Of a stretch of 64,000 bases of DNA, positions 18,665 through 32,175 are shown piece after piece (position 1 is the first letter of the stretch; each line of letters opens with the position of its first letter). Location of the stretch: assembly GCA_041651155.1 (NCBI GenBank), contig JBAZJU010000006.1, positions 4,638 to 68,637 of the forward strand, in the 5' to 3' direction. This DNA is from Patescibacteria group bacterium. Lineage in GTDB: Bacteria > Patescibacteriota > Patescibacteriia > CAIXNZ01. Under the pieces are notes generated by a model. That model searched no databases, was not told the DNA's origin, and was given only the letters and a program-made list of their open reading frames with translations. The position numbers and the translations under genes are program-made.

Positions 18665-18672
18665 TTTTTAAT

Positions 18673-19665: not shown

Positions 19666-20484
19666 ATGCCCAATCATTATAAAATCTGCCTAATTCTTTC
19701 ATTATTTTTACTCTCAGCTACAGCTGCCTGGGCAGGTTTTAATTATGATTCGGCCAATAATAATTTTTTATTTGATTCAATCTTGAGGACAGAAGGCAAT
19801 TATTTGCTGGTCGGCAATGCCTTTAATGAAAATTTAAAAAAGCAAGATAATAGCATTTCCACTAATTTTTTGGCCGTTTCCAATAATTTAATATTTTTAA
19901 ACAGCGGTGATGCGAATAACATTGGCGGCCAATTCTCCAGCGGTTTGCGCCAAGTTAGCAAAAATAATTTTTCCAGCCAGGCCATTACAATTGACAACAG
20001 CCAAAATTTGCAATTAGAGCCGGTTGGCGGCGCGAAATCATTGAGCCTGGAAGCCAACCGCATTTTATTAAATCAAAATTTTAGGCTCAGGAGCGGTTTG
20101 GCTTTTGATGTCCGGAGCGTGAATCAGATTTCAAATAGGACAATTTATGTTGACAAAGTATTGGCCTCTGGTCTGCAAAATTTAACCGCGGATAATCCTT
20201 TGCAGATTTCCAATAGTACTGTCTTGAATATTCCGGCCACAGCCGGAGCTGTTACGGCTGATAAAATTACTTTTGGCGCCAAAGATTTATGCGTGGTTAA
20301 GACCTGGACAGTTGTTGATAATACTTTAAAGCAGGGCGTGGGCGTGGCAGATTCTCCTATTATCACAGCGGATTGTCCTCCCAATTATTTTGTATTTGAT
20401 CTGGATGCTTCAGCAGGCAAAATGGTCTGTTGCCAGGCAGCCAGCGGGCAATTGCAGCTTAGCCAAATCCAGCAAACACCTTAA
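19666..20484 (+). CDS. Secreted hypothetical protein
   Basis: Signal peptide ICLILSLFLLSATAAWAG; 272 aa, Asn/Ser-rich. Confidence 0.6.
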   Translation: MPNHYKICLILSLFLLSATAAWAGFNYDSANNNFLFDSILRTEGNYLLVGNAFNENLKKQDNSISTNFLAVSNNLIFLNSGDANNIGGQFSSGLRQVSKNNFSSQAITIDNSQNLQLEPVGGAKSLSLEANRILLNQNFRLRSGLAFDVRSVNQISNRTIYVDKVLASGLQNLTADNPLQISNSTVLNIPATAGAVTADKITFGAKDLCVVKTWTVVDNTLKQGVGVADSPIITADCPPNYFVFDLDASAGKMVCCQAASGQLQLSQIQQTP

Positions 20485-20501: not shown

Positions 20502-20975
20502 ATGGACCAAGGCTTTAATTTTAAAATTAACAAGCAAGCTCAAAGCATAGAATTTACCATAAATACTGAAATTTATTCTTTGACAGCGATTTACAATGCC
20601 GCCTATTTATTTTTGGATAAGGCGTATGTTTTTTTAGATGGCGATCCGAAGGCAGAGATCATCGCAATATTTAAAAGGAAAGAAGGGCAAAAAGAGGAAA
20701 ATGGGAGAGAAGGCTTGGAAAAGATTGCCGGAGAATTTTATAATGAACTTTTAAATCAGCTGTTGCGGGAAAAAGTAAGCGAGTCAAATGCAAAAATCAG
20801 GGAATATGTGGTTTCAGCCGCGCTTTATAACGCTGTGCCCAATGAGGTGGATAAGCTTTTGCAGGAAGTTGAGGAGGAAGATTGGCAGGAAGATCCTTTA
20901 GGGATTGCAAAAACATGGGAGGATAATGAGAAGAGCAAAGAGGGTAAGAAGGGAGAAATGGGAAAATGGAAGTAA
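20502..20975 (+). CDS. Hypothetical protein
   Basis: 157 aa; acidic/basic C-terminus. Confidence 0.5.
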   Translation: MDQGFNFKINKQAQSIEFTINTEIYSLTAIYNAAYLFLDKAYVFLDGDPKAEIIAIFKRKEGQKEENGREGLEKIAGEFYNELLNQLLREKVSESNAKIREYVVSAALYNAVPNEVDKLLQEVEEEDWQEDPLGIAKTWEDNEKSKEGKKGEMGKWK

Positions 20976-21166
20976 TTAAGTTTAATAAAAAGATTTATAG
21001 TCTTGAAGCAATTGAAAAGGCGATTAATGAATTTAAAAATTTAGCTGAATTTAAGATAAAAGATGAGGCTGATTACTTTGAAGTGCAAATTGATAAAATT
21101 GATAATGAATATGAAGGTGTTTTGAAAGATGAATTTGGAAATTATGTATTGGGATTGATGAGCTGA
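20966..21166 (+). CDS. Small hypothetical protein (66 aa), start overlaps previous stop
   Basis: ORF only; overlap ATGGAAGTAATTAAG with previous gene end suggests coupling. Confidence 0.35.
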   Translation: MEVIKFNKKIYSLEAIEKAINEFKNLAEFKIKDEADYFEVQIDKIDNEYEGVLKDEFGNYVLGLMS

Positions 21167-21225: not shown

Positions 21226-21270
21226 AACCTTCGTCCCGCCCAGCGGGACTACGGTTTGCAAAGGCAAATA
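21226..21270. repeat. Structured repeat family B copy 2 (aaaccttcg-gtcccgcccagcgggac-tacggtttgcaaaggcaaat)
   Basis: See 17788-17831; compensatory stem substitution. Confidence 0.5.
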
Positions 21271-21288
21271 AAAAACAAAAACAAAAAT

Positions 21289-21636
21289 ATGGATAAGAAG
21301 TACGATTTAGAAGATCGCACCTTAGAGCTTGGAAAAGAAATAATTCGTTTATGTAAAACTTTACCTGCTAATACTATAAACTTTAGGCTAATAGATCAGT
21401 CTATTCGCTCTGGGACATCAGTTGGCGCCAATTATCGAGAAGCAAATGAAACTGACACAAAGAAAGATTTTAGATTTAAAATTAGAATTTGTTTAAGAGA
21501 AGCTAGGGAAACAATTTATTGGCTTGAGCTTATAAAAGAGGCTAACCAAAATTTTTCTGCCAGGATTGATAAATTGATTAGTGAGACAAGAGAAATAGTT
21601 AAGATTTTTGGTTCAATTTTGGAGAAATCTAAATAG
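21289..21636 (+). CDS. Four-helix-bundle protein (23S rRNA intervening-sequence-type protein family)
   Basis: Start at MDKKYDLEDRTLELGKEI; motif SVGANYREA ... DF ... REA...E typical of this family. Confidence 0.65.
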   Translation: MDKKYDLEDRTLELGKEIIRLCKTLPANTINFRLIDQSIRSGTSVGANYREANETDTKKDFRFKIRICLREARETIYWLELIKEANQNFSARIDKLISETREIVKIFGSILEKSK

Positions 21637-21737: not shown

Positions 21738-23219
21738 ATGTTAGATTTACAAACCATCAACAATTTAGATACCAAGTCAGTAGGATATTTTCGATTTAAA
21801 CAGTTTGGCAATGAATATCTGCTGACTAATGAAACTGGGGAGTATGTTTTTTTACCTGAAAATAATTTCAAGGAATTTTTAACTGGAAAGCTAGATTCTA
21901 AAAGTGAAAATTTTCAGGAGTTACTAAACAAGTCGTTCCTTAAAGATAAAAATTATCTGGCGAATGCAGTTTTAAAGTATCGCGAGCGCTATCATTTTTT
22001 AAAATTCGGGCCGTCTTTGCATATTGTGGTTGTAACTTTAAGATGCAATCATAAGTGTATTTATTGCCATGCCAGCGCCGGTAGCAGCGAGGATAAAGGT
22101 TTAGACATGGATTTGGCAACTGCCAAGAAAGTAGTAGATACGATTTTTCTCACTACCAATGATGCGATTTGTATTGAGTTCCAGGGCGGAGAGCCGCTTC
22201 TAAATTGGCCGGTGGTTAAATTTATCATTTCTTACGCAGCGGAAAAAAATAAGCTGGAAAAGAAAAATTTAATTTTTAGGCTCGTGTCCAATTTTAGCTT
22301 GATGGATGAAGAAAAAATGAAGTTCCTGATGGACAATGAAGTTTACTTCTGCACTTCGCTTGACGGCGACGAGGAAACTCATAATTATAATCGCATTTAT
22401 ACGGAAGGCAATAGCTATCAGAACGCGGTCAACTGGATAAAAAAGATAAACGCCGAATACGAGGAAGTAAATAAGGGCAAGAAAAAAAATTATTATAGAG
22501 TAGGCGCCTTGATAACTGTGACCAAAAAAACACTGGCTAGTTACAAAGAAGTGATAGATACTTATCTTGAGCTTGGCTTTAAAAGCATTTATCTGCGCTA
22601 TTTATATCCTTATGGCTTTGCCAGGCAAGCCAAAGAAAAAATTTGGTACACAGTAGATGAGTATGTTGACTTTTATAAAAAATCTCTTGATTATATTTTA
22701 GCCAAAAATTATCAGGGCCAGCTTTTTTACGAGAACATGGCCGCGACTTATTTGCGCAAGATTTTAGACCAGGAGGAGCCTCATAATCTGGATATGCGTT
22801 CGCCCTGCGGCGCGGTCATCGGCCAATTATCTTACAATTACAATGGTGATGTGTACACTTGTGATGATTCCAGGTCTCTTTCCAGACTAGGTGATGAAAC
22901 ATTTAAACTGGGCAATATTAAGCAAAATACTTTTAGCGAGCTGGTAAATAACAGTTTATGCAAATCAATGTGCGTTGCCTCATGCACCAATGGCTTGCCT
23001 GGCCATAATGAGAGCGTTTACCAGCCATATTGGGGAGCCTGTCCGGTCTACAATTATTGTCTTTCCGGCAATATATTCCCGGCCATGAAGGAAAATTTTA
23101 AATGGCAAATTGATGAGCAAATTCTTGATTATATTTTTGAAAAATTAAAAGATAAAAAAAATAAGGATATTTTTAAGGAATGGTGCAAAGCTTCACGGCC
23201 GAGAGCGAAATATGAATAA
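21738..23219 (+). CDS. Radical SAM/SPASM-domain peptide-maturase-like enzyme (493 aa)
   Basis: CX3CX2C at LRCNHKCIYCHA, GGEPLL motif, C-terminal Cys-rich SPASM-like region (CGAVIG ... CDDS ... CKSMCVASCTNG ... CPVYNYC). N-terminal region YFRFKQFGNEYLLTNETGEYVFL resembles peptide-maturase N-termini. Confidence 0.85.
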   Translation: MLDLQTINNLDTKSVGYFRFKQFGNEYLLTNETGEYVFLPENNFKEFLTGKLDSKSENFQELLNKSFLKDKNYLANAVLKYRERYHFLKFGPSLHIVVVTLRCNHKCIYCHASAGSSEDKGLDMDLATAKKVVDTIFLTTNDAICIEFQGGEPLLNWPVVKFIISYAAEKNKLEKKNLIFRLVSNFSLMDEEKMKFLMDNEVYFCTSLDGDEETHNYNRIYTEGNSYQNAVNWIKKINAEYEEVNKGKKKNYYRVGALITVTKKTLASYKEVIDTYLELGFKSIYLRYLYPYGFARQAKEKIWYTVDEYVDFYKKSLDYILAKNYQGQLFYENMAATYLRKILDQEEPHNLDMRSPCGAVIGQLSYNYNGDVYTCDDSRSLSRLGDETFKLGNIKQNTFSELVNNSLCKSMCVASCTNGLPGHNESVYQPYWGACPVYNYCLSGNIFPAMKENFKWQIDEQILDYIFEKLKDKKNKDIFKEWCKASRPRAKYE

Positions 23220-23300
23220 CTATAACTTTGGTTGTATTTTACGTTTAAAATCGCACAATGCTTTAAAATTTAATAAAAAGATAGTATAATAAAGATAACT

Positions 23301-23801
23301 ATGCTAAACAAACTGCCAAAACTAAAGAAAAAATTTCAGGAATTTCTTAATGATGAAGAAGGCAAGATAACTAAAAAAGATATTATCATGCTTGGCATTG
23401 GCGCAAGCGCGCTTGGCATCATGGCCGAAGGAATCAATGCTGCTCATGCTGCTACGCCCACTTGTAGCGCAGGTGGTGGAGTTTATACCTCACCGCCAAA
23501 TTATGTTCAATGCAATGAAGGTTGGGCAGGAAGTTCAGGCTGCGGACCTCATGATTGCAACGGCGGTGGCTCGGGCTCAACTACCAATCTATGCCAAAAT
23601 AATTTGTCATACCCTTTGGGTTCTTGCACTAATACCCCCGGAGCTATTTGCGGGGTGGATATAGGAGATACTCATTTCGGCCATAATAATTTTGTTCATA
23701 ATGAAGGAGTAGTCGGTTCTCATTGCTCACACGGCTCTCATGGCTCTCACGGCTCACACGGCTCTCATGGCTCTCATGGCTCTCATGGGTTTGCCGGTTA
23801 A
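23301..23801 (+). CDS. Secreted Cys/Gly-rich protein with C-terminal (Ser-His-Gly)x7 = His-Xaa-Ser repeat tail; candidate radical-SAM substrate (HxsA-like)
   Basis: Charged N-terminal ~30 aa, hydrophobic segment MLGIGASALGIMAEGINAAHAA, 10 Cys core, then SHCSHGSHGSHGSHGSHGSHGSHGFAG. Confidence 0.7.
   Translation: MLNKLPKLKKKFQEFLNDEEGKITKKDIIMLGIGASALGIMAEGINAAHAATPTCSAGGGVYTSPPNYVQCNEGWAGSSGCGPHDCNGGGSGSTTNLCQNNLSYPLGSCTNTPGAICGVDIGDTHFGHNNFVHNEGVVGSHCSHGSHGSHGSHGSHGSHGSHGFAG
23726..23789 (+). repeat. Tandem 9-bp repeat (cayggctcw)x7 encoding the His-Gly-Ser repeats; frame-preserving simple sequence repeat
   Basis: Seen directly: cacggctct catggctct cacggctca cacggctct catggctct catggctct catgggttt. 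Confidence 0.8.
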
Positions 23802-23811: not shown

Positions 23812-24648
23812 ATGAAAAAAATAATTTTGATATTAGCGATAATAGCCTTATTAATAATTGTTGGTGTAGTTATTTTTTTTATTTATCTCAAAGCACCAGC
23901 GCGGCCAACAAATGTAAATCAGCCAGTGGCGGTTGCCAAAGAAAAAATTATTGGTAATTTTTCATTATTTCTTAATGAGCTAATAAATGTACAAAAAGTA
24001 CAGCCAGTTGCACTCACACCAATATTGGAATACTTAAGTTTTTGTGAATTTAAAAATAATAACATCTCTTTTGATCAGCAATGCATTAAGACCAATGAAA
24101 CATATTATGGCGTAAAAAATAGCTCTGCCGATTGCACCATTAAAGATGGAGATTTTGCTGAAATTGATTTTATCAAAAAAGGAGAACAAGACAATTTTTT
24201 GAAAATTTGCCAAGAATATATTTCTGCTCTTAATACCTATTACAATAATAATTCTCAAGAAAAAACAAGTTTAAACGCCCAAAGGTTTTATCAGTTTTAT
24301 AATGATTGTAATTTGCTTTGGGATAATAAGCTATATGGCGATAACGAATATTGTGATGCTGGAGATAATTGCTATGCAATCTTGCTGCCAGAGGACCAAA
24401 ATTGTCCTAATAAAATAAAGATTGATACCGTCAGTCTTGATAGCATTAAAACGGTTCAATGCCAAACTCAAGTCGGCTTTAGAAGAGCCAGCCAAAAATC
24501 AGATTGTCTGAACATCAAGAATTTAATGGCTCGGCTCTTTTGCCTTGACGCATTTGACAATAATCTTTGCTCAGAAGTCACAGCCAGCGTGGAAAATTTA
24601 AAATTACAAGATTTTGTGACAAAATATCAATTACAAACTGCCCAGTAA
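23812..24648 (+). CDS. Cys-rich membrane-anchored (signal-anchor) extracytoplasmic protein
   Basis: Start at MKKIILILAIIALLIIVGVVIFFIYL (ATG 23812), since the six-frame ORF start at 23740 lies inside the previous gene's repeat; about 14 Cys. Confidence 0.6.
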   Translation: MKKIILILAIIALLIIVGVVIFFIYLKAPARPTNVNQPVAVAKEKIIGNFSLFLNELINVQKVQPVALTPILEYLSFCEFKNNNISFDQQCIKTNETYYGVKNSSADCTIKDGDFAEIDFIKKGEQDNFLKICQEYISALNTYYNNNSQEKTSLNAQRFYQFYNDCNLLWDNKLYGDNEYCDAGDNCYAILLPEDQNCPNKIKIDTVSLDSIKTVQCQTQVGFRRASQKSDCLNIKNLMARLFCLDAFDNNLCSEVTASVENLKLQDFVTKYQLQTAQ

Positions 24649-24741
24649 ATTATGTAAAATTTTACCGATAGGCCATTGCCAAAATGGCTTATTTTTTTTA
24701 TTATTAAGTAACAATGGGGTGAAAAAGCCTTTGGTTTAATT

Positions 24742-25881
24742 ATGGCAAAAACGCTTAAAAACGATAAATTTTGGCTATCAATCAGCACCAGATGCAATAA
24801 TCAGTGCCTTTTTTGCCATGATAAGGAAAATCAGGTAAACGGACGTTTTTTTACATTGGCAGAGGTTCAAGATAAGATTGAACAGGCAAAAAAAGAAGGT
24901 TACAAGCGTTTGATTTTAAGCGGCGGGGAAGCTTCAATTAATCCTGATTTTTTGAAAATAGTCAGATATGCTCACGATTTAGGCTTTAAAGAAATCCAGA
25001 CAATCACTAATGGCCGCTATTTTTATTATTCCAAATTTGCCGCTGAGGCGATTAAAGCCGGTCTGACTGAAATAACTTTTTCTCTGCACGGCCATAACGA
25101 AGAACTGCACGAGGAATTTACCGGAGTTAAGGGTTCTTTTCAGCAGGCTTTAACTGGCCTGGCTAATGTCAGAAAATATCCGCAAATAATTGTTAATATT
25201 GATATAGTGATTAATAAATTGAATTACCCAAAGTTATATGACATAATTCAGTTTTATGCCCAGAATTTCGGGGTCTATGAATTTGATCTTTTACAAGTTG
25301 TCCCTTTTGGCCAAGCCTGGGAAAATCGTGATAAATTATTTTATGATTTTAATGATGCTTTGCCTTATCTGAACAAAGTGTGGGAGCTGGCAAAAAATGA
25401 CCAGAGATTTCATATCTGGACCAATCGTTTCCCGGCGCAATATCTGGAGGGTTATGAATTTTTGATTCAGGATCCGTATAAATATTTTGACGATGTTTTG
25501 GGACGCAAAAAAATGTTTGCGGAATTTATAAATGAAAATAAATTAATGCCTTGTTTTAATCCGGAGCGTTGCAAATCGTGCAACCTAAACGATTTTTGCC
25601 AGAAATTAATTAATTTAACAAAAGGAGATTTGTCAGACAAATTAATGAAATTAACAATGCCGCCTGTTTGTCTTGATTTGCCCCGCGATAATTATGAGAT
25701 TAATTTTTTGAATGCGCAAGGCAGAATCAATTTGGAAAAATTTGTGGATTTTTATATTAATAATTTGTACAACCTTAAATCTTTACGTTGCGATGATTGT
25801 AATAAATTTAAAGATTGTAACGGATTGAATATTAATTTAATTAAGGAAAAGGGTTTTAAAGTTTTAAAGCCAATATCATGA
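24742..25881 (+). CDS. Radical SAM enzyme with C-terminal partial-SPASM/twitch Cys motif; paralog 1 of six tandem copies (379 aa, longest)
   Basis: CX3CX2C at RCNNQCLFCHD (residues 18-25), SGGEASINP, CKSCNLNDFC (CX2CX5C). Confidence 0.85.
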   Translation: MAKTLKNDKFWLSISTRCNNQCLFCHDKENQVNGRFFTLAEVQDKIEQAKKEGYKRLILSGGEASINPDFLKIVRYAHDLGFKEIQTITNGRYFYYSKFAAEAIKAGLTEITFSLHGHNEELHEEFTGVKGSFQQALTGLANVRKYPQIIVNIDIVINKLNYPKLYDIIQFYAQNFGVYEFDLLQVVPFGQAWENRDKLFYDFNDALPYLNKVWELAKNDQRFHIWTNRFPAQYLEGYEFLIQDPYKYFDDVLGRKKMFAEFINENKLMPCFNPERCKSCNLNDFCQKLINLTKGDLSDKLMKLTMPPVCLDLPRDNYEINFLNAQGRINLEKFVDFYINNLYNLKSLRCDDCNKFKDCNGLNINLIKEKGFKVLKPIS

Positions 25882-25885
25882 CCAG

Positions 25886-25995
25886 GGCGAGAACGCCCTT
25901 TTGTCATTCCGAATGAAGTGAGGAATCTATTACTTCCAGGATTCTTCGCTTCGCTCTGAATGACAGTGAAGACAAAAGGGCGTTTTCGCCCGACA
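25886..25995. repeat. ~110-nt hairpin repeat family C copy 2, inserted between radical SAM paralogs 1 and 2
   Basis: Same conserved core as 15826-15935 with compensatory arm changes (acgccc/gggcgt vs agccc/gggct). Confidence 0.55.
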
Positions 25996-26004
25996 ATTAA
26001 TTCT

Positions 26005-26940
26005 ATGGCTAATCTAGGCTACATCCAATTAAACAGAACCTGTAATCAAAAATGCCTTTTTTGTTCTAATCCAGAAAACGGCAATGTTTTGGATTTAGCT
26101 CAAGTCAAATTTTATATTGATGATTTTGCGAATAAAAATTATCAGGGCGTAATTTTAACCGGCGGCGAGCCGACTTTAAATGCAGATTTAGAAAAAGTAA
26201 TTAGTTATGCCAAGTCCAAAGGTTTGGAAGTAAGGATAATTACCAATGGCCAAAAAACAGCTGACTTAGAATATCTAAAGAAACTAAAAAATGTCGGCTT
26301 GGATTTAATTCATGTTTCAGTGCAGTCTTATGACCCGAAAATCCAGGATTATCTGAGCCAAAATCCAGGTTCATTAAAAAATATCCTAAAAACTTTGGTT
26401 AATGCTTGGCGCCTGAATTTGCCTGTAAATATAAATACAGTGATCAATAGTTTTAATGCCAAAAGCCTGGATAAAAATATTAAATTTTTTCTGGTTAAAT
26501 TTCCAGAAATTAATCATTTTGTTTTTAATAATCTAGATCCTGAAATGAATCGGGTAGAGCAAAATAAATTTGTGGTGCCAAGATTAATTGATTTCAAGGA
26601 ATCTTTAAAAAGAGCTTTTGAATCGTTAAGTAAATTTGGCAAAACTTTCCGGGCAGAAAGAGTGCCTTTATGCTATATGGCTGAATATGGAGAATTTTCC
26701 ACCGAAACCAGAAAAATAGTTAAAAATGAAGAAAGAAGCATTTTATTTCTGGATGATAGAAAAGATCCTTATAGCATCCAAAAAAATTTTTATTATAAAA
26801 AAGCAAAACAGTGCGGCCAATGCAGCCTGAATGATATTTGCGCGGGTCTGTATGCCATGGATACGTATTTTGACAGTAGGGAATTGGAGCCGCAGCTGAT
26901 TGATAAGCAACTCATTATTAATAAAATTAAAAATGAATAA
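26005..26940 (+). CDS. Radical SAM twitch-domain enzyme, tandem paralog 2
   Basis: Start at MANLGYIQLNRTCNQKCLFCSNPENG (ORF track start 25960 lies in the repeat element); LTGGEPTLN; CGQCSLNDIC. Confidence 0.8.
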   Translation: MANLGYIQLNRTCNQKCLFCSNPENGNVLDLAQVKFYIDDFANKNYQGVILTGGEPTLNADLEKVISYAKSKGLEVRIITNGQKTADLEYLKKLKNVGLDLIHVSVQSYDPKIQDYLSQNPGSLKNILKTLVNAWRLNLPVNINTVINSFNAKSLDKNIKFFLVKFPEINHFVFNNLDPEMNRVEQNKFVVPRLIDFKESLKRAFESLSKFGKTFRAERVPLCYMAEYGEFSTETRKIVKNEERSILFLDDRKDPYSIQKNFYYKKAKQCGQCSLNDICAGLYAMDTYFDSRELEPQLIDKQLIINKIKNE

Positions 26941-27814
26941 GCGGGTGGAAATTTATATTGGTTTTAAATGCAATAATGATTGTGTTTTTTGCGTTGAAAG
27001 AAATATCCGCCTGCAAAATAAAGATAAAATTTTATACTCCGATCTGACTGCAATTGTCAATAAAATTAAGGATTTGAAAAATCAAGGCTATGGCCATATT
27101 AATTTTTTGGGCGGGGAGCCATTTTTGGAAAAAAACTTTTTGCCTTTTTTGCAGGCCGCTAAACAAAATGGCCTGTCCACCGCAGTCACCACCAATGGCA
27201 GCCTGCTTAGCAATGAAGAAATCGCCAAGTCACATTTGCCTTTGCTTGATGATTTGATTATCTCTATTCATGGCCACAATGAAGAACTGATAAGCCAGCA
27301 ATCAAAAAATCCCGGTTTGTTTAAAAGTTTGCTTGAGGCTTTTGCTAATATAAAAAAATATTTTCAAGGCAGACTGCTTAAAGCCAATTGCGTAATAAAT
27401 AAATTAAATTATAAAGATCTGCCGGAAATTATTGAGTTTATTTGTACTAACGGCATCCACGAAATTAGCCTGACAAATATGTCTCTCAAAGGTTACAATA
27501 ATGAATATGTTGTGCCTTTGAGCGAACTAAAAAAAGTTATACCCAAAATCGCAGATTATGCCAAAGAAAATAATTTGGTTCTTCGTTTTTCTGATTTGCC
27601 CTTTTGTATTTTGGGGGATAATTATTATCTGACTAATGAAATTTTTGCCGATGAGCGCGTTAAATATAATGCGGCCAATAAAGAGGAAAGTTTTTGGCGG
27701 CCCAAGCTTAAAACCGAAAAATGTAATGAGTGCAAGCTCAAGGATCTATGCATGGGAATTGATTTAGAATATTATAAATTATTTGGGGATTGTGAATTGA
27801 ATTCGGTAATATGA
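26933..27814 (+). CDS. Radical SAM twitch-domain enzyme, tandem paralog 3 (start overlaps stop of paralog 2: ATGAATAA)
   Basis: MNKRVEIYIGFKCNNDCVFCVERN; LGGEPFLE; CNECKLKDLC. Confidence 0.8.
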   Translation: MNKRVEIYIGFKCNNDCVFCVERNIRLQNKDKILYSDLTAIVNKIKDLKNQGYGHINFLGGEPFLEKNFLPFLQAAKQNGLSTAVTTNGSLLSNEEIAKSHLPLLDDLIISIHGHNEELISQQSKNPGLFKSLLEAFANIKKYFQGRLLKANCVINKLNYKDLPEIIEFICTNGIHEISLTNMSLKGYNNEYVVPLSELKKVIPKIADYAKENNLVLRFSDLPFCILGDNYYLTNEIFADERVKYNAANKEESFWRPKLKTEKCNECKLKDLCMGIDLEYYKLFGDCELNSVI

Positions 27815-27986: not shown

Positions 27987-28883
27987 ATGAGAAACATTGA
28001 GATTAACATTGGCAATAGCTGCAATAATGAATGTCTTTTTTGTATGGTGGACCACTCCAGCCGTGGTTTTGTTGCTTATAAAACAATTGAAAAAGAGATT
28101 ATCAGGGCAAAACAAAATGGTTTTGAGTCCATTGGTTTTTTAGGCGGGGAATTTACCTTGCATCCTGAGGTTTTAAAAATTGTAAAACTAGCCAAGATTT
28201 TAGGTTTTAAGATTATTCACATCATTAGTAATGGCCGTAAATATCAAGATGAGAATTTTGTCAAACAACTAATTAATAATGGCGTTAATCGCTTCTCAGT
28301 TTCAATCCATAGCCATAAGATGGAAGTTGAAGATTATTTAACGCAAAGGCCGGGAGGATTTGCAGAAAAAATTCAGGGCTTGAAAAATTTGGTAAAAATG
28401 AATCAGCCTGTTTCAGCTAATTTAGTCATCAACAACTTGAATTATCAGGATATTGCGGAAACTTTAAATTTTTTAAACGGGCTAGGAATTATTGATTTTC
28501 GTTTGAATTTTATCTGGTTGCATGGCCGGGCTTTAGCTAACCAAAATTTATTTCTTAAATTTAATGACTTTTTGCCTTTGGTGGATAAAATTATTAATCT
28601 GGCAAAAGAGAAAAATCTTACCATTGCTTTTGAAGGAATACCCGCTTGTTTAATTAAAGATAACAATAAATTGGATTACATCGGCGAATTAAGAGATTTA
28701 AAAACAGAAGTGGTAGCTTTTAATAATCCGCAAAAAGAAAGAGAAAATTTTAATTGGCAGGAAAGGAAGACCAATGAATTTAAAATTAAGCATGAAAAAT
28801 GCCTGGAGTGCGTTTATAATAATTCTTGCGAGGGTGTATGGAGAGATTATATTAACTTCTTTGGCTGGAAGGAATTTTTTTAA
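27987..28883 (+). CDS. Radical SAM twitch-domain enzyme, tandem paralog 4
   Basis: IGNSCNNECLFCMVDHS; LGGEFTLHP; CLECVYNNSCEGVW; ends FGWKEFF. Confidence 0.8.
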   Translation: MRNIEINIGNSCNNECLFCMVDHSSRGFVAYKTIEKEIIRAKQNGFESIGFLGGEFTLHPEVLKIVKLAKILGFKIIHIISNGRKYQDENFVKQLINNGVNRFSVSIHSHKMEVEDYLTQRPGGFAEKIQGLKNLVKMNQPVSANLVINNLNYQDIAETLNFLNGLGIIDFRLNFIWLHGRALANQNLFLKFNDFLPLVDKIINLAKEKNLTIAFEGIPACLIKDNNKLDYIGELRDLKTEVVAFNNPQKERENFNWQERKTNEFKIKHEKCLECVYNNSCEGVWRDYINFFGWKEFF

Positions 28884-28937: not shown

Positions 28938-29786
28938 ATGTCTTTAATCCGCTTAACAAATTTATGCAATGCAAAATGTTTATTCTGCAATTTCCCAGAT
29001 GATTGCCGAGTTTTAAGTTTGGACGAAGCAAAAAAAGAAATTGATACTATTACTGATGATTCGGTTGCTTTTACTGGCGGTGAGCCAACGATTCATCCGT
29101 TTCTTAAAGAGACAATTAGTTATGCCAAGCAAAAAGGGATTAAAAACATTGAACTGCAAAGCAATTGTTTTTTGCTTGAAAATTTAGATTTGGTTAAGGA
29201 ATTAAAAGCATTGGGTTTGACCGGAGTTTTTGTTACAGTTCATTCTGAGCAAAAAGAAGTTTTTGAAAAAATCACCCAGGTGCCCGGGAGTTTTGAAAAA
29301 GTTTTGCAAGGAATCGCTAATTTAATTTCCTTAGGGGTTAAAGTGCGAATCAATATTGTTATTAATTTTTTAAATTATAAGAATCTAGAAGAAATCACTA
29401 AATTTATTTACAGCCAATTTCCACAAATAAAAAGTATTGATTATTCTTTTGTCGTACCGGTTGAAAAAGTTTTAAAGCAGCCAGAATTATTGCCAAAAAT
29501 AAGCGAGGTTGTACCATTTTTAAAAAAAGCCTTTAAATATTGCCAGGAAAATAAAATTAGTTTTTCTAATCCAGGCTGTGGCCTGCCTTTATGTTTTATT
29601 CCCGAATATAAAGAAAATAGTTTGGAATATAATTTTTTAAAAAAACAAATAGAAAATGGGTTAATTTCTGATAATCGTTTTGAAAAGATTAAGTTTGCTA
29701 AATGCAAAACCTGTGAATTTGATGAATTTTGTCTGGGCTTTTGGCCAAATTATGTTAAAATTCACGGTGAGCAGGAATTTATTTAA
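28938..29786 (+). CDS. Radical SAM twitch-domain enzyme, tandem paralog 5
   Basis: RLTNLCNAKCLFCNFPDD; FTGGEPTIHP; CKTCEFDEFCLGFW. Confidence 0.8.
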   Translation: MSLIRLTNLCNAKCLFCNFPDDCRVLSLDEAKKEIDTITDDSVAFTGGEPTIHPFLKETISYAKQKGIKNIELQSNCFLLENLDLVKELKALGLTGVFVTVHSEQKEVFEKITQVPGSFEKVLQGIANLISLGVKVRINIVINFLNYKNLEEITKFIYSQFPQIKSIDYSFVVPVEKVLKQPELLPKISEVVPFLKKAFKYCQENKISFSNPGCGLPLCFIPEYKENSLEYNFLKKQIENGLISDNRFEKIKFAKCKTCEFDEFCLGFWPNYVKIHGEQEFI

Positions 29787-29797: not shown

Positions 29798-30691
29798 ATG
29801 GACAGAGTTGATATAAAAATCGGCTTTAAGTGCAATAACAATTGCCAGTTTTGCGTCCAGGGTGAAAAAAGGTATAAACATGAGAACAGAACATTGGATG
29901 AGATTAGGAACGCTTTAGCAGAGGCCAAAGGACAAGGCGCCGCAGGCGTGGTTTTTACCGGAGGTGAGCCGACCATTCATCCTGATATTTTGGCAGCCGT
30001 AAAATCCGCCCGTGATTTGGGTTTTAAAAATATCCAGATTCAATCAAACGGCCGGATGTTTGCCTATTTGGATTTTTGCAAAAAGTTAGTTTTGGCCGGG
30101 GCAAATGAATTTTCCCCGGCTTTGCACGGCTCAAACCCAGAAATCCATGATGAATTAACCAGCAGTCCTGGCGCGTGGCAGCAAGTGGTGCAGGGGATTA
30201 AAAATTTAAAATCACTGGGGCAGCATGTTTTGACCAATACAGTAATTAATTCTGAAAATTATCAGGATTTGCCAAAGCTGGCCCAGCTTTTTGTTGATTT
30301 GGGCGTTGACCAATTCCAATTTGCCTTTGTCCATATTTTGGGTACGGCAGAAAAAAATAAAGATTGGATTGTGCCAAAGATGAGTGAAGTGATGCCTTTT
30401 GTAAAACAAGGCTTGGAGATCGGGATTAAGGCAGGGAAGGTTGTGATGACTGAAGCTATCCCTTTTTGTTTAATGCAGGGCTATGAAGATTTTATTGCCG
30501 AAAGGATAATGCCTGAAACAAAAATTGTTGATGCCGAAGGCGTAATTGAAAATTTTGCTGACTATCGTTGGAATCAGGGGAAAGTTAAAAGGGAAGAATG
30601 CAAGGTGTGTAAATTTTTTAAGCTTTGCGAAGGCCCCTGGAAAGAATACCCGGAAATTTTTGGCTGGGATGAATTCCAGCCGATCTTATAA
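29798..30691 (+). CDS. Radical SAM twitch-domain enzyme, tandem paralog 6
   Basis: IGFKCNNNCQFCVQGEKR; FTGGEPTIHP; CKVCKFFKLCEGPW; ends FGWDEFQPIL. Confidence 0.8.
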   Translation: MDRVDIKIGFKCNNNCQFCVQGEKRYKHENRTLDEIRNALAEAKGQGAAGVVFTGGEPTIHPDILAAVKSARDLGFKNIQIQSNGRMFAYLDFCKKLVLAGANEFSPALHGSNPEIHDELTSSPGAWQQVVQGIKNLKSLGQHVLTNTVINSENYQDLPKLAQLFVDLGVDQFQFAFVHILGTAEKNKDWIVPKMSEVMPFVKQGLEIGIKAGKVVMTEAIPFCLMQGYEDFIAERIMPETKIVDAEGVIENFADYRWNQGKVKREECKVCKFFKLCEGPWKEYPEIFGWDEFQPIL

Positions 30692-30693: not shown

Positions 30694-32175
30694 ATGCAAA
30701 ATCCATTTGAAGTTATTTTTTTAGCTTTTTTATTTATCTTTGGCATCATAATCTGCTATGAGGATTTTAGGTTTGACAAAATCAGGAATAAATGGATTAA
30801 ATGGGGTTTTATAATCGGCGTTGCTTTGTACTTGTTGCAGATTATTTATTTAATTTTTTCATCTCAAACAATTGAATTGCATAATTATTGGCAGATAATT
30901 TTAAATACCTTGATTGCCTTTGTTTTGGGGTTTACCCTCTGGTATTTTAAGCTTTGGTCAGGAGGTGATGCGAAACTATTTACTCTCTTTGTTTTTTTAC
31001 TGCCGATCAGCTTCTATTCTGAATGGAATTTTATTTATTGGCCGCCTTTAAATTTATTGATAAATATTACAATTCCGATTTTTATTTATTTGCTGATTAA
31101 ATTTTTACTTTATCCCTTTCAATTGCTGATAAATTATCTAAAAAATCCCCATTTACTTAAAGAATATTATCGCAATTATAAAAGCAGGAATAAGCTTGAT
31201 AAGAAAAAAATCAATGAATATTTGGCTGCGGCCTTGAGCTTTGTTATAATTTTGATATTTTTTCAAATTATAAGAGTGCGGTTGGGCGATTTTTTGCATC
31301 CTTATCTCGGCAGCCTGATGATTGCTTTTTACTTTTTTATGGGTTTTGTAGTTTTTCAGCCCTTGCGGAAATTAATGCAAAAAAGAATTATTTTGGCTTT
31401 AATTTCAGTGATTGCGTACTTTGTGGCTGGAATCATATTTTTTCGTAATTTGGTTTTCGCTGATTTGCACAATTTATTTGCCGTGCAGTTAATTTTTATG
31501 CTTTCTTATTATTATATCTTCAAATACGGCAAAGCCCTGATTATGTTTTTGTATAATTCAGCTGAAGTAAGAATGATTCCGGTAGAAGAACTGCAGGCCG
31601 GAGTTTACATTAACAAAGATTATGTCAGTAATGTTTTAGGCAATCGTTTTAATCTGGAAAATTTTAAAAACAGCCTGGATGCAACTTTGGCTAATGAGGA
31701 CAAGGAACAATTATGGAGCCTGCTTAAGCAAAAATCAGACAAAAGCCATAAGGAAAAACAATATATTCAGCTGGTTGCTTATTTGAATCCGCAAAGTTGG
31801 CCGTATTTAATCAAGCAAATTTTTCAGATAAGAAAACAAAAAAAGGCTGGCCAAGACCTGTTGGAAAAAATTTCCGCCAAGTTAAATTTAGAACAAAAAT
31901 CAGAATTAGAAAATATTTTAAATCACACGGATGAATTTAAAAAATTTTTAAAGTCAATTCGCGGAAAATTAACTGCAGAGCAAGCAGACAAACTAAAGGC
32001 CATGATAATGCAAAGAAACGAAGAGATTAAAGCCCATGGCTTGCAGCCGATTGATAAAATTATTTTGCATAAAACCTTTGCTTTTGCGCCTTTTATGCTT
32101 TTGGGCGTGATTATAACTCTCGTCACAAAAAGTTCTTTAATTCATTTAATTTACGTTTACATTTTGCACAAGTAG
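30694..32175 (+). CDS. Prepilin-peptidase (A24 aspartyl protease)-like polytopic membrane protein fused to a ~330-aa C-terminal TM/coiled-coil extension
   Basis: Motifs CYEDFRFDKIRNKW (first Asp region) and LWSGGDAKLFTLFVFLLP (cf. GxGDVKL second catalytic Asp of PilD/FlaK/TadV); starts 3 nt after paralog 6. Confidence 0.6.
   Translation: MQNPFEVIFLAFLFIFGIIICYEDFRFDKIRNKWIKWGFIIGVALYLLQIIYLIFSSQTIELHNYWQIILNTLIAFVLGFTLWYFKLWSGGDAKLFTLFVFLLPISFYSEWNFIYWPPLNLLINITIPIFIYLLIKFLLYPFQLLINYLKNPHLLKEYYRNYKSRNKLDKKKINEYLAAALSFVIILIFFQIIRVRLGDFLHPYLGSLMIAFYFFMGFVVFQPLRKLMQKRIILALISVIAYFVAGIIFFRNLVFADLHNLFAVQLIFMLSYYYIFKYGKALIMFLYNSAEVRMIPVEELQAGVYINKDYVSNVLGNRFNLENFKNSLDATLANEDKEQLWSLLKQKSDKSHKEKQYIQLVAYLNPQSWPYLIKQIFQIRKQKKAGQDLLEKISAKLNLEQKSELENILNHTDEFKKFLKSIRGKLTAEQADKLKAMIMQRNEEIKAHGLQPIDKIILHKTFAFAPFMLLGVIITLVTKSSLIHLIYVYILHK

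What the first reader, a model, noticed from the sequence alone, without database searches (positions are those of the whole stretch)
23301..23801. HxsA-like precursor: secreted Cys/Gly-rich protein with a C-terminal His-Gly-Ser x7 tail encoded by a 9-bp tandem DNA repeat
The C-terminus SHCSHGSHGSHGSHGSHGSHGSHGFAG is a perfect His-Xaa-Ser repeat. In-silico work (TIGRFAMs HxsA-D) linked His-Xaa-Ser repeat proteins to pairs of radical SAM maturases. Here the repeat protein sits beside a SPASM maturase and a six-member radical SAM array, in a phylum where that system has not, to my knowledge, been noted. The underlying 9-bp repeat at 23726-23789 is a potential slipped-strand contingency locus that would change repeat number without changing frame.
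Basis: partly seen in the sequence, partly recalled or inferred. Interest (0 to 1): 0.7.

Follow-up and report, generated by a model that had tools for sequence, protein, structure and literature searches.

The report
Variant His-Xaa-Ser repeat precursor protein
This small gene encodes the His/Ser-repeat substrate protein of a little-studied, expanded version of the radical-SAM "Hxs" system (recently shown in E. coli to block phage DNA entry), here conserved in ultra-small Patescibacteria with six extra radical-SAM enzymes and a membrane protease.

Summary
ORF 23301-23801 (+) encodes a 166-aa protein ending in SHC(SHG)7FAG, over an imperfect 9-bp repeat at 23718-23789.

It is the precursor of a variant Hxs system. 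Three neighbours pass NCBIfam cut-offs: HxsD (20502-20975), an HxsD-like protein (20966-21166) and HxsB (21738-23219). The precursor misses canonical HxsA (TIGR03979) and scores below cut-off for HxsA3 and HxsA4. It nevertheless belongs to their large family: 1,732 representatives, sharing the leader PKLKKKxxxFLxxEEGKITKK. In every locus with enough flank, the precursor follows HxsD, HxsD-like and HxsB.

In seven close Parcubacteria-type relatives the leader is about 84% identical, the core about 21%, and the tail is conserved. That pattern is typical of modified-peptide precursors.

The six downstream radical-SAM genes are ancient HxsC-core paralogs with one-to-one orthologs. A GxGD (A24) protease closes the cluster. 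That array-plus-protease module also occurs without Hxs genes nearby, so its action on this protein is inferred.

The contingency-locus idea is weak because synonymous codons are scrambled. NCBI already labels HxsB and HxsD in this MAG. Function is unknown: the mature part has no Lys or Arg, unlike E. coli HxsA.

Verdict: new variant of a known kind.

The parts
20502..20975 (+). HxsD (157 aa), the small accessory protein of the Hxs system. It carries an LLNQLLRE motif, matching the family's LLNDYxLRE.
   Evidence: TIGR03976 scores 63.7 bits against a cut-off of 50. GenBank names it 'His-Xaa-Ser system protein HxsD', MFA5188671.1. It is present upstream of HxsB in nearly all related loci.
20966..21166 (+). 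HxsD-like protein (66 aa), a second small accessory protein. It overlaps the end of hxsD by 10 nt.
   Evidence: NF038315 scores 78.8 bits against a cut-off of 41. A 64-77 aa ortholog lies between HxsD and HxsB in Parcubacteria, Saccharibacteria, Omnitrophota, code-25 and DPANN loci.
21738..23219 (+). HxsB (493 aa), a radical-SAM/SPASM maturase with an N-terminal extension of about 95 aa.
   Evidence: TIGR03978 scores 500.4 bits against a cut-off of 370. Pfam finds Radical_SAM and SPASM. It is 37% identical to the HxsB proteins of Aeromonas and Nostoc. The closest solved relative is PDB 5wgg, a SPASM peptide maturase. GenBank names it HxsB, MFA5188674.1.
23262..23290 (+). Promoter-like site (TTTAAA-17-TATAAT) ending 11 nt before the precursor's ATG.
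   Evidence: The consensus scan gives 10 of 12 matches. Such sites are not enriched over shuffles (70 found, 59 expected), so this is only suggestive.
23301..23801 (+). HxsA3/HxsA4-type precursor (166 aa). Its five segments are: a Lys-rich helical leader (aa 1-24); a hydrophobic helix plus AHA (aa 25-50); a hypervariable Gly/Cys-rich core (aa 51-126); a conserved GHNNFVHNEGVVGS motif (aa 127-140); and SHC(SHG)7 followed by FAG (aa 140-166).
   Evidence: Translation. Sub-threshold hits: HxsA3 to aa 5-50 and HxsA4 to aa 134-163. Family: 144 homologs, and 1,732 representatives by profile search. In seven close relatives the leader is 84% identical, the core 21% and the pre-repeat motif 69%. The AlphaFold2 model has helices at 2-17 and 25-49 (pLDDT about 80-87) and a disordered core.
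23718..23789 (+). Imperfect 9-bp tandem repeat encoding the eight S-H-x units.
   Evidence: TRF reports 7.9 copies at 85% matches. There are 5 distinct 9-mers, and the longest perfect tract is 29 bp.
23812..24648 (+). Membrane-anchored, Cys-rich protein (278 aa) with one N-terminal transmembrane segment. It is a fast-evolving, recurrent neighbour of the precursor.
   Evidence: It has no hit above cut-off in Pfam or NCBIfam. Proteins of the same type lie next to the precursor in L001, L002, L004, L007, L008, L009, L010, L020 and L022. They are only 25-33% identical in close relatives. GenBank calls it a hypothetical protein, WC460_04925.
24667..24693 (+). Terminator-like hairpin (11-bp stem followed by a T-run) after the precursor and membrane-protein pair.
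   Evidence: Consensus scan; suggestive only.
24742..25881 (+). R1, an HxsC-core-like radical-SAM enzyme (379 aa). It has an extra C-terminal CxxCx5C module.
   Evidence: Best NCBIfam hits are HxsC4 (104 bits against 500) and HxsC (98 against 268). Alignment A1. One-to-one orthologs score 315-656 bits.
25960..26940 (+). R2, an HxsC-core-like radical-SAM enzyme (326 aa).
   Evidence: Best hit is HxsC TIGR03977 at 93.5 bits against 268. Orthologs score 249-584 bits.
26933..27814 (+). R3, an HxsC-core-like radical-SAM enzyme (293 aa from the ATG at 26933). It overlaps the end of R2 by 8 nt.
   Evidence: Best hit is HxsC4 at 90 bits. Orthologs are 293 aa and score 281-521 bits.
27987..28883 (+). 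R4, an HxsC-core-like radical-SAM enzyme (298 aa).
   Evidence: HxsC4 scores 141 bits and HxsC 85 bits. Orthologs score 324-465 bits.
28938..29786 (+). R5, an HxsC-core-like radical-SAM enzyme (282 aa).
   Evidence: HxsC4 scores 91 bits and HxsC 90 bits. The ortholog in L004 scores 288 bits.
29798..30691 (+). R6, the most conserved HxsC-core-like radical-SAM enzyme (297 aa). It is the likely equivalent of the single HxsC.
   Evidence: HxsC4 scores 166.5 bits and HxsC 99 bits. Orthologs score 410-491 bits in Parcubacteria, an Elusimicrobiota MAG and other loci. The single rSAM next to HxsB in DPANN loci is closest to R6.
30694..32175 (+). GxGD-type (peptidase A24-like) polytopic membrane protein (493 aa) that closes the cluster. 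It is a candidate leader peptidase.
   Evidence: Pfam Peptidase_A24 scores 27.2 bits against 26.5. D24 and G91-D92 (AGDAKLF) are invariant in five homologs from Hxs-type loci. GenBank names it 'prepilin peptidase'. It holds the same terminal position in L042.

Best explanation
ORF 23301-23801 is a real gene. It encodes the substrate (precursor) protein of a variant His-Xaa-Ser (Hxs) radical-SAM maturation system in a Patescibacteria genome of the Parcubacteria type.

Anatomy (shown). The protein has five parts:
- a near-invariant Lys-rich helical leader (PKLKKKFQEFLNDEEGKITKK);
- a hydrophobic helix ending in AHA that looks like a signal or anchor sequence;
- a hypervariable Gly/Cys-rich core;
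- a conserved GHNNFVHNEG..GSHC motif;
- seven SHG repeats.

It is encoded directly after HxsD, an HxsD-like protein and HxsB. It is followed by a Cys-rich membrane-anchored protein, six HxsC-core radical-SAM paralogs and a GxGD (A24-like) membrane protease.

Mechanism (inferred):
1. The leader is bound in the cytoplasm by HxsB and/or the two HxsD-type proteins.
2. HxsB and at least one HxsC-like enzyme (most likely R6) install radical-mediated covalent modifications on the His/Ser tail, and perhaps on the adjacent Cys.
3. The other paralogs add further or position-specific modifications.
4. The hydrophobic segment then directs export.
5. The leader is removed either by signal peptidase after AHA50 or by the cluster's own GxGD protease near the invariant Gly21.
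6. The mature, acidic, His-rich product stays at the cell surface, possibly held by the neighbouring Cys-rich membrane protein.

Function (guess). My rough split is: envelope-level barrier against phage, by analogy with E. coli HXS, about 0.35; metal binding or acquisition about 0.25; surface or host-interaction structure about 0.2; other about 0.2.
For: Family membership of the neighbours:
- HxsB, HxsD and HxsD-like all pass NCBIfam cut-offs. GenBank names them the same way in this MAG.

Family of the precursor:
- Its leader matches HxsA3 and its tail matches HxsA4.
- Of 82 aligned family members, 79 hit HxsA3 and 76 hit HxsA4 at E<=1e-5.
- A profile search finds 1,732 representatives at E<=1e-3 and 361 at E<=1e-10.

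Co-location:
- The precursor lies directly downstream of HxsB in 10 of the 11 genome loci that carry one (L001-L011); L003 scores as a short overlap (11449 versus HxsB end 11485), an ORF-start artefact.
- The same holds in the three contexts of distant homologs (L020-L022) and in the metagenome loci with enough upstream flank. L033 is a looser case (HxsB 3429-4880, precursor 9992). In L040 the phmmer pass did not call the precursor, whose position comes from the tblastn match.

Precursor-like conservation:
- In seven close relatives the leader is 84% identical, the core 21% and the pre-repeat motif 69%.
- Synonymous codon scrambling of the repeat shows selection on the peptide rather than the DNA.

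The downstream enzymes:
- R1-R6 share four features with canonical HxsC: CxxxCxxC, GGE, PxC and the C-terminal CxxCx5CxG motif.
- HxsC4 or HxsC is the best NCBIfam hit for each.
- Each has a one-to-one ortholog in relatives.

The A24-like protein:
- It keeps both catalytic Asp residues.
- It recurs inside Hxs-type loci of four other lineages: L009, L015, L020 and L022.

Structure and inheritance:
- The AlphaFold2 model shows two N-terminal helices followed by disorder.
- HxsB identity to relatives (65-71%) equals that of the neighbouring DnaJ (65-70%). The exported proteins diverge fast: HxsA 39-49%, membrane protein 25-33%.

Experimental precedent in E. coli:
- A +8 Da modification maps to an HxS motif.
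- The mature protein is exported (PMC13128918).
Against: - The precursor does not hit TIGR03979 and is below the cut-offs of HxsA3 and HxsA4.
- None of R1-R6 reaches the HxsC or HxsC4 cut-off. All lack the roughly 110-aa N-terminal domain of canonical HxsC.
- The radical-SAM array plus A24 module occurs in other loci with no HxsD, HxsB or HxsA within 10 kb upstream (L043-L045). Its action on this protein is therefore not established.
- In L043 the A24-like gene is followed by a pilin-like (N_methyl) gene, so it may be an ordinary prepilin peptidase.
- The predicted mature part has 0 Lys/Arg and 5 Asp/Glu. Across the family the X residue is Gly, Ser or Ala. The 'basic repeats bind incoming DNA' model proposed for E. 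coli HxsA does not carry over.
- No peptidoglycan-binding domain is present.
- No modification, export or cleavage has been observed for this variant.
Confidence: 0.8

Rival explanations
1. Only HxsD, HxsD-like, HxsB and perhaps one HxsC-like enzyme act on the repeat protein. On this reading the R1-R6 array plus the A24-like protein is a separate module with another substrate, such as a lipid, a glycan, pilins or another peptide. It simply lies next to the Hxs genes in this lineage.
For: Distant A24-like homologs sit at the 3' end of 5-8-gene radical-SAM arrays, which include strong R6 orthologs (419-445 bits). No HxsD, HxsB or HxsA lies within 10 kb upstream of them. Glycosyltransferase, methyltransferase or pilin-like genes lie nearby (L043-L045). 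A terminator-like hairpin separates the precursor and membrane-protein pair from R1. R1-R6 are far below the HxsC and HxsC4 cut-offs.
Against: HxsC-core-like enzymes, A24-like genes or both are interleaved with HxsD, HxsB and HxsA in several lineages: Parcubacteria-type, Saccharibacteria, Omnitrophota and two unassigned metagenome contigs. They also sit beside HxsB in an Elusimicrobiota MAG (L015), where no HxsD or HxsA was detected. Canonical systems need an HxsC, and here only the R genes can supply one. R1-R6 share the HxsC-specific C-terminal Cys motif.
Confidence: 0.3
2. The His-rich tail is simply a metal-binding tag on a secreted protein, and its position next to radical-SAM genes is incidental.
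For: The mature part has 12 His and 8 Cys and no basic residues, which is the composition of a metal-binding protein. No modification has been observed.
Against: Every informative locus places this protein family directly after HxsD, HxsD-like and HxsB. Ser is as conserved as His, at exact 3-residue spacing, under synonymous codon drift. A conserved cytoplasmic-type leader precedes the export signal.
Confidence: 0.05
3. The 9-bp repeat is a slipped-strand contingency locus that varies repeat number at high frequency within populations.
For: The unit is in frame. Unit number differs between species, from 6 to 20 S/T-H-x units in the close clade and from 2 to 45 across the family. L006 and L011 show recent expansions of an 18-bp double unit.
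Against: The window tract has 5 distinct 9-mers in 8 units, and only 29 bp of it is perfectly periodic. Relatives mix TCN and AGY serine codons, which points to old units under peptide-level selection. The window, L001, L004 and L008 all have exactly 8 units.
Confidence: 0.1
4. The (Gly-Ser-His)n tail is a short collagen-like Gly-X-Y triple-helix segment.
For: Pfam Collagen gives a weak hit, 19.7 bits at E=7e-4. A few family members hit collagen-like adhesin models.
Against: The hit is below the Pfam cut-off of 27.2. There are only 7-8 triplets. In the family Gly is often replaced by Ser or Ala, while His and Ser stay invariant, which breaks Gly-X-Y periodicity.
Confidence: 0.02

Closest known systems
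Canonical HXS antiphage system (HxsD-HxsB-HxsC-HxsA; TIGR03976-03979; Li et al., Nat Commun 2026, PMC13128918)
   Same: HxsB and HxsD are true family members, above cut-off. The substrate is a small exported protein with tandem His-Xaa-Ser repeats and is encoded in the same operon-like cluster. At least one HxsC-type radical-SAM enzyme with the same C-terminal CxxCx5C motif is present. N-terminal processing of the substrate is expected.
   Different: - The gene order is D, D-like, B, A, membrane protein, R1-R6, A24 rather than D-B-C-A.
- A second HxsD-like protein is present.
- There are six HxsC-core paralogs that lack the roughly 110-aa N-terminal domain.
- The substrate has a long conserved leader, a hypervariable Cys-rich core, X = Gly rather than Arg/Ser, no basic residues and no peptidoglycan-binding domain.
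- A dedicated GxGD protease and a Cys-rich membrane protein are present.
- The host is a single-membrane Patescibacterium.
- The locus is syntenic and evolves at the rate of the adjacent DnaJ gene (seen in four relatives), rather than sitting on plasmids or islands.
NCBIfam variant models HxsA3 (NF038309), HxsA4 (NF038313), HxsD-like (NF038315) and HxsC4 (NF038332)
   Same: The HxsD-like protein passes its cut-off. The precursor's leader aligns to HxsA3 and its tail to HxsA4. R1-R6 have HxsC4 as their best or second-best hit.
   Different: The precursor is below both cut-offs because an insertion of about 78 aa of Gly/Cys-rich core and a GHNNFVHNEG motif separates leader and tail. R1-R6 score 90-166 bits against an HxsC4 cut-off of 500. 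These models have no description in the searchable literature.
SPASM radical-SAM peptide maturation pathways (SCIFF/CteB-type thioether formation, ranthipeptides such as PapB)
   Same: HxsB's next-best matches are PapB, the nif11-type maturase, CcpM and the SCIFF maturase, and its closest solved relative is PDB 5wgg. The precursor shows the conserved-leader, variable-core logic.
   Different: The substrate is a 116-aa exported protein domain rather than a short peptide. The target motif is His/Ser repeats. The chemistry is unknown; only a +8 Da shift has been reported, for the E. coli system.
Type IV prepilin peptidases (peptidase family A24, GxGD aspartyl proteases)
   Same: The Pfam A24 domain and both catalytic Asp motifs are conserved. 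The candidate substrate has a charged leader ending in an invariant Gly, followed by a hydrophobic helix.
   Different: The protein has no methyltransferase domain and carries a roughly 300-aa extra C-terminal region. The residues around Gly21 (EEG-KITKKD) do not match the prepilin consensus ([KR]G-F/M...E). Cleavage has not been tested.
Simple-sequence contingency loci of host-adapted bacteria
   Same: A short tandem repeat lies inside a gene for a surface or exported protein, and changes in unit number keep the reading frame.
   Different: The repeat units are not identical at the DNA level, and there is no evidence of within-population length variation.

Membership tests
Hxs system (TIGRFAMs/NCBIfam HxsA-D) | HxsB radical-SAM/SPASM maturase above the TIGR03978 cut-off | tested here: met
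   500.4 bits against 370.
Hxs system (TIGRFAMs/NCBIfam HxsA-D) | HxsD small protein above the TIGR03976 cut-off, with an LLNDYxLRE-type motif | tested here: met
   63.7 bits against 50. The sequence contains LLNQLLRE.
Hxs system (TIGRFAMs/NCBIfam HxsA-D) | HxsC radical-SAM partner above the TIGR03977 cut-off | tested here: not met
   The best of the six is 99.2 bits against 267.9 (R6). All lack the N-terminal domain of canonical HxsC.
Hxs system (TIGRFAMs/NCBIfam HxsA-D) | HxsA repeat protein matching TIGR03979 | tested here: not met
   No hit at E<=0.01. Only 1 of 82 family members hits it.
Hxs system (TIGRFAMs/NCBIfam HxsA-D) | Tandem His-Xaa-Ser repeats in a small exported protein encoded beside the maturases | tested here: met
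   Seven H-x-S units, a hydrophobic N-terminal helix plus AHA, and a position directly after hxsB.
Hxs system as characterised in E. coli (PMC13128918) | Gene order HxsD-HxsB-HxsC-HxsA, a peptidoglycan-binding domain, and basic residues in the repeats | tested here: not met
   The order is D, D-like, B, A and onwards. Pfam finds no such domain. The mature part has 0 Lys/Arg.
Hxs system as characterised in E. coli (PMC13128918) | rSAM-dependent N-terminal processing, a +8 Da modification, and antiphage activity | not testable with these tools
   This needs expression, mass spectrometry and phage assays.
HxsA3/HxsA4 variant (NCBIfam NF038309, NF038313, NF038315, NF038332) | HxsD-like protein above the NF038315 cut-off | tested here: met
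   78.8 bits against 41.
HxsA3/HxsA4 variant (NCBIfam NF038309, NF038313, NF038315, NF038332) | Precursor above the HxsA3 or HxsA4 cut-off | tested here: not met
   HxsA3 40.9 against 65 and HxsA4 41.6 against 55. Close relatives are also below (50 and 42.3). A Saccharibacteria member passes, 61.2 against 55.
HxsA3/HxsA4 variant (NCBIfam NF038309, NF038313, NF038315, NF038332) | Shared leader P-x-[LI]-K-K-x-[ILVF]-x-x-F-L-x-x-E-E-G-K | tested here: met
   P6, K9, K10, F15, L16, E19 and G21 are at least 90% conserved in 39- and 82-sequence alignments that include the window protein.
HxsA3/HxsA4 variant (NCBIfam NF038309, NF038313, NF038315, NF038332) | HxsC4 radical-SAM protein above the NF038332 cut-off | tested here: not met
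   90-166.5 bits against 500. The radical-SAM genes next to an NCBI-named HxsA4 in Omnitrophota also fail, at 159 and 208 bits.
Slipped-strand contingency locus | Long, perfectly homogeneous repeat tract | tested here: not met
   5 distinct 9-mers in 8 units; the longest perfect tract is 29 bp.
Slipped-strand contingency locus | Repeat-number variation within a population or between strains | not testable with these tools
   Only between-species variation was seen, 6-20 units. Reads are not available here.
Peptidase A24 (GxGD prepilin peptidase) | Pfam PF01478 above cut-off and two conserved catalytic Asp residues | tested here: met
   27.2 bits against 26.5. D24 and G91-D92 are invariant in 5 homologs.
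Bacterial collagen-like protein | Pfam Collagen above cut-off with uninterrupted Gly-X-Y | tested here: not met
   19.7 bits against 27.2. Gly is replaced by Ser or Ala in homologs.

The most novel reading that the evidence does not exclude
In Parcubacteria-type Patescibacteria the Hxs system is not a mobile defence island. It is a vertically inherited locus that evolves at the rate of a neighbouring housekeeping gene and takes up more than 10 kb of a small genome. Between seven and about eleven radical-SAM enzymes, two HxsD-type chaperones and a dedicated GxGD protease together hyper-modify and process one fast-evolving, exported His/Ser-repeat protein. This implies a core cell-surface structure of these episymbionts, possibly a phage or DNA gatekeeper or a host-contact element. 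It would also name the leader protease that is still missing from the E. coli system.
Probability: 0.3. Interest if true: 0.75.

Novelty: new variant of a known kind. Interest (0 to 1): 0.55.

Why it matters
The Hxs system received an experimental function only in 2026: a periplasmic block of phage DNA entry in E. coli. That study reported it as 99.7% confined to Pseudomonadota.

This locus shows a much larger and older relative:
- The precursor family has at least 1,732 sequence clusters. Members named or placed by the sources come from Patescibacteria and Omnitrophota.
- HxsB, HxsD and HxsD-like genes also occur in DPANN-type archaeal MAGs, with no precursor seen nearby.
- The leader, the repeat chemistry (no basic residues) and the accessory genes all differ from the canonical system.
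- In reduced Patescibacteria genomes the maturases are kept as tightly as the adjacent DnaJ gene, while the exported parts evolve fast.

If confirmed, this gives three things:
- tractable material for working out what radical-SAM enzymes do to His-Xaa-Ser motifs, using several paralogs and a natural series of substrates;
- a candidate protease for the unexplained N-terminal processing;
- a test of whether the 'DNA-entry gatekeeper' function is general or specific to the proteobacterial branch.

Tried and rejected
- PADLOC 2023 has no Hxs model. The rSAMs hit only generic viperin profiles.
- The Pfam Collagen hit is below cut-off and was rejected.
- Rfam and tRNA scans find nothing near the locus.
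- Viral contigs: the HxsB query found no relative. The precursor profile found one contig that matches only the repeat. There is no sign of phage carriage.
- The metagenome scan used only the repeat as its pattern and returned 18 loci. These were useful for co-location but are not a census.
- Exact-product look-ups for the precursor, HxsB and the membrane protein returned nothing. I could not read the public gene calls around the precursor, although the cluster look-up shows its neighbours are in GenBank.
- The AlphaFold2 model of the precursor is confident only for the two N-terminal helices (mean pLDDT 58.7), so I did no fold search.
- I looked for HxS-type precursors in the DPANN and Elusimicrobiota loci and found none among ORFs of 45-200 aa.
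- The membrane protein has only 3 detectable homologs, too few for a useful structure prediction.
- My regular expression for the leader was too strict, finding 154 of 252 sequences, so I used it only for rough family statistics.
Full report
**Observation.** The ORF at 23301-23801 (+) is present and translates to a 166-aa protein ending GSHCSHGSHGSHGSHGSHGSHGSHGFAG. Tandem Repeats Finder reports a 9-bp period at 23718-23788: 7.9 copies, 85% matches, score 100. It also reports a 27-bp period at 92% matches. The peptide repeat is perfect, with one SHC and seven SHG units. The DNA repeat is not: there are five distinct 9-mers among eight units, and only 29 bp is perfectly periodic. Apart from the reverse-strand reading of the same tract, no other H-x-S run of three or more units exists in any frame of the window. 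A radical-SAM/SPASM gene lies at 21738-23219. Six radical-SAM ORFs with intact CxxxCxxC motifs lie at 24742-30691.

**What the neighbours are.**
- The upstream SPASM enzyme is HxsB (TIGR03978, 500.4 bits against a cut-off of 370).
- Further upstream are HxsD (20502-20975; TIGR03976, 63.7 against 50) and a 66-aa HxsD-like protein (20966-21166; NF038315, 78.8 against 41).
- An unrelated four-helix-bundle gene (21256-21636) is inserted between them.
- Directly after the precursor comes a 278-aa protein with one N-terminal membrane segment and a Cys-rich body (23812-24648). It has no hit above cut-off in Pfam or NCBIfam.
- Then come the six radical-SAM genes, here called R1-R6.
- Last is a 493-aa polytopic membrane protein with a peptidase A24 domain (30694-32175; 27.2 against 26.5).

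The window comes from a GenBank MAG labelled 'Patescibacteria group bacterium' (contig of 88,896 bp). There PGAP already names HxsB, HxsD and the HxsD-like protein. It calls R1 and R6 'radical SAM protein' and the last gene 'prepilin peptidase'. The exact precursor sequence is not in the 15-billion-protein collection, although the accession numbering leaves one slot (MFA5188675) between HxsB and the membrane protein.

**What the precursor is.** It does not match canonical HxsA (TIGR03979). Its N-terminus (aa 5-50) matches HxsA3 (NF038309, 40.9 against 65). Its tail (aa 134-163) matches HxsA4 (NF038313, 41.6 against 55). Both scores are below cut-off.

A sequence search found 144 homologs. All share four features:
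- the leader P-K-L-K-K-K-x-x-x-F-L-x-x-E-E-G-K-I-T-K-K;
- a hydrophobic stretch;
- a variable middle;
- a C-terminal (S-H-x)n tail, usually ending in Trp or Tyr.

Of 82 aligned members, 79 hit HxsA3, 76 hit HxsA4 and only one hits TIGR03979. A profile search of 1.84 billion representatives gives 1,732 hits at E<=1e-3 and 361 at E<=1e-10. On a regex-selected subset of 154 of the 252 sequences retrieved, the median length is about 104 aa and the median number of H-x-S units is 7 (interquartile range 5-9). In the same subset X is Gly, then Ser, then Ala in frequency, with no basic residue among the ten commonest. A few members are named HxsA4 by NCBI in Omnitrophota MAGs. A Saccharibacteria member passes the HxsA4 cut-off.

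The window protein is a long member of this family. An insertion of about 78 aa, rich in Gly and Cys, plus a GHNNFVHNEG motif separates the leader from the tail. That insertion explains the sub-threshold scores.

**Co-location test.**
- Relatives of the window's HxsB in GTDB genomes are Parcubacteria, Falkowbacteria and Buchananbacteria MAGs (65-85% identity). More distant relatives include Saccharibacteria, a 'Cyanobacteriota' MAG, a Polyangiaceae MAG, DPANN archaea and an Elusimicrobiota MAG.
- In 10 of the 11 genome loci that carry a precursor, it lies directly after HxsB. L003 scores as a short overlap, an ORF-start artefact.
- The contexts of three distant homologs show the same order: HxsD, a small ORF of about 65 aa, HxsB, then the precursor. 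These are an Omnitrophota locus, a code-25 genome and an unassigned contig.
- So do the metagenome loci with enough flank. L033 is a looser case, and in L040 the precursor position comes only from the tblastn match.
- No member was seen without HxsB where the flank allowed a look.

The metal-tag reading with incidental neighbours is therefore rejected.

**Precursor-like conservation.** Across seven close relatives the leader plus hydrophobic segment is 84% identical on average. The core is 21% identical and varies from 32 to 91 aa in length. The pre-repeat motif is 69% identical. HxsB identity to these relatives (65-71%) equals that of the adjacent housekeeping DnaJ (65-70%). The exported proteins diverge much faster: precursor 39-49%, membrane protein 25-33%, and three upstream secreted proteins 24-40%.

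The locus is syntenic from DnaJ to CysS in these genomes. GC content is even across it. This points to vertical inheritance rather than an island.

An AlphaFold2 model built on the family alignment gives two confident helices, aa 2-17 and 25-49. The core is disordered, and a weak hairpin sits at the GHNNF motif. The hydrophobic maximum is aa 28-42 and is followed by AHA at aa 48-50. That is consistent with a signal or anchor sequence preceded by a cytoplasmic recognition leader.

**The six radical-SAM genes.** Each has HxsC4 (NF038332) or HxsC (TIGR03977) as its best NCBIfam hit. All are far below cut-off: 90-166 bits against 500, and 70-99 against 268.

Aligned with canonical HxsC from an Aeromonas plasmid and a Nostoc plasmid, they share CxxxCxxC, GGE, a PxC motif and the C-terminal CxxCx5CxG motif. 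They lack the roughly 110-aa N-terminal domain. They are 25-34% identical to each other, yet each has a clear one-to-one ortholog in relatives: 249-656 bits, against 40-170 bits for cross-paralog matches. The array is therefore old, and each copy is kept.

R6 is the most conserved. It scores 410 bits in an Elusimicrobiota MAG and 419-491 bits in other loci. It is also closest to the single radical-SAM gene next to HxsB in DPANN loci. Relatives carry up to four further radical-SAM genes in the cluster, including small SPASM, HemN-like and B12-binding types.

**The A24-like protein.** Five homologs from Hxs-type loci keep D24 and the G-D of AGDAKLF, the two catalytic Asp motifs of GxGD proteases. 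In the window and in L042 it is the last gene of the cluster, just before CysS. It lies inside Hxs-type loci in Saccharibacteria, Elusimicrobiota, Omnitrophota and one further contig.

The reverse test is mixed. Three distant homologs all sit at the 3' end of 5-8-gene radical-SAM arrays. However, no HxsD, HxsB or HxsA lies within 10 kb upstream, and one is followed by a pilin-like gene. The radical-SAM array plus A24 may therefore be a separable module. I give that rival 0.3.

**Comparison with the known system.** The E. coli HXS system (PMC13128918) consists of HxsD, HxsB, HxsC and HxsA.
- A +8 Da change maps to an SHRSS motif.
- The mature protein is periplasmic and anchored by a peptidoglycan-binding domain.
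- It is proposed to bind incoming phage DNA through basic repeats.
- Of the systems surveyed, 99.7% were in Pseudomonadota and 99.6% had the order D-B-C-A.

The present locus shares HxsB, HxsD and the repeat-substrate logic. It differs in gene order, in having a second HxsD-type protein, in the multiplied and truncated HxsC type, and in the substrate. The predicted mature part has 0 Lys/Arg, 5 Asp/Glu, 12 His and 8 Cys, and no peptidoglycan-binding domain. The electrostatic DNA-binding model cannot simply be transferred, so the function stays open.

No paper in the searchable library mentions HxsA3, HxsA4 or HxsC4. The variant exists only as NCBIfam models and automatic annotations.

**Contingency locus.** Unit number changes over evolutionary time: 6-10 S/T-H-x units in eight of the nine closest relatives examined, 20 in L006, and up to 45 in L010. 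L006 and L011 show expansions of an 18-bp double unit. In contrast, the window tract and most relatives use scrambled synonymous codons, including TCN against AGY for serine. The window, L001, L004 and L008 all have exactly eight units. This looks like selection on the peptide, not a hypermutable tract. Within-population variation could not be tested.

**Verdict.** It is wrong or weak on three points: the TIGR03979 test, the claim that the phylum is new for the system, and the contingency locus.

The feature is a new variant of a known kind. It is a Cys-rich, long-core subfamily of the HxsA3/HxsA4 precursor family, inside an expanded Hxs locus that looks vertically inherited in Parcubacteria-type Patescibacteria. 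Confidence is about 0.8 in the identity and in the maturation logic. Confidence in the role of R1-R5 and the A24-like protein is much lower, and lower still for the biological function.

Noticed in passing
window 34362-35522 (+): A 386-aa protein with a NOV_C (PF13020) domain and strong hits to the PADLOC candidate-defence models PDC-S36 (6.9e-36) and PD-T4-1 (2.6e-22). It lies just after CysS, about 2 kb downstream of the Hxs-type cluster, in the lowest-GC stretch of the window (0.305).
   Followed up: partly
L021:10001-10435 and the Trp-rich homologs P0002, P0005-P0007, P0012 and others: Many homologs appear to have 'SHW' repeats and an 'SRW' end. L021 makes sense only under genetic code 25 (UGA = Gly), which restores SHGSHGSHG. 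Summed phmmer scores are 683 bits under code 25 against 23 under code 11. The Trp-rich database entries are therefore probably mistranslations from Gracilibacteria- or Absconditabacteria-type genomes.
   Followed up: partly
window 21256-21636 (+): A four-helix-bundle protein gene (TIGR02436, 90 bits against a cut-off of 24) is inserted between the HxsD-like gene and hxsB. L001 and L002 have an ortholog at the same spot, L004 has a different 117-aa gene there, and other relatives have none.
   Followed up: partly
window 17235-20484 (+): A 174-aa membrane protein is 76-87% identical in relatives. Three fast-evolving secreted proteins follow it (24-40% identical, no family hit). All four always lie between DnaJ and HxsD in the Parcubacteria-type loci and are absent from more distant Hxs-type loci. 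They may be linked to the system or may simply be lineage-specific neighbours.
   Followed up: partly
L013:3265-6535 and L014:9124-12535 (DPANN archaeal MAGs): HxsD, a 77-aa HxsD-like ORF, HxsB (35-38% identical to the window's) and a single R6-like radical-SAM gene occur together in Woesearchaeota and Nanoarchaeota MAGs. No His-Xaa-Ser ORF is visible nearby.
   Followed up: partly
window 23301-23801; GenBank accessions MFA5188674 and MFA5188676: The exact precursor sequence is absent from the 15-billion-protein collection, and no near-identical hit was returned. All seven neighbours that were checked are present. The accession numbering leaves one slot between HxsB and the membrane protein, so the gene was probably called in GenBank but is not held here.
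   Followed up: partly
window 8885-9098 (+): An 84-bp tandem repeat (2.5 copies, 75% matches) encodes repeated Cys-rich modules of the form NETCxxCxKDCGSCP.
   Followed up: no
window 13146-14278 (+): Two adjacent Cys-rich lipoprotein-like genes have nearly identical signal peptides (MKKL[LF]IIFAFIVLLAGCSLQ) but different mature parts.
   Followed up: no
window 28891-28924: A 15-16-bp perfect palindromic hairpin (7 GC pairs) lies in the short gap between R4 and R5. It reads the same on both strands.
   Followed up: no
L010:4137-4733 and downstream: In a MAG labelled Cyanobacteriota the precursor carries 45 S-H-x units. After the Cys-rich membrane protein come adenylation/NRPS-like and ABC-transporter genes instead of a radical-SAM array.
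   Followed up: no
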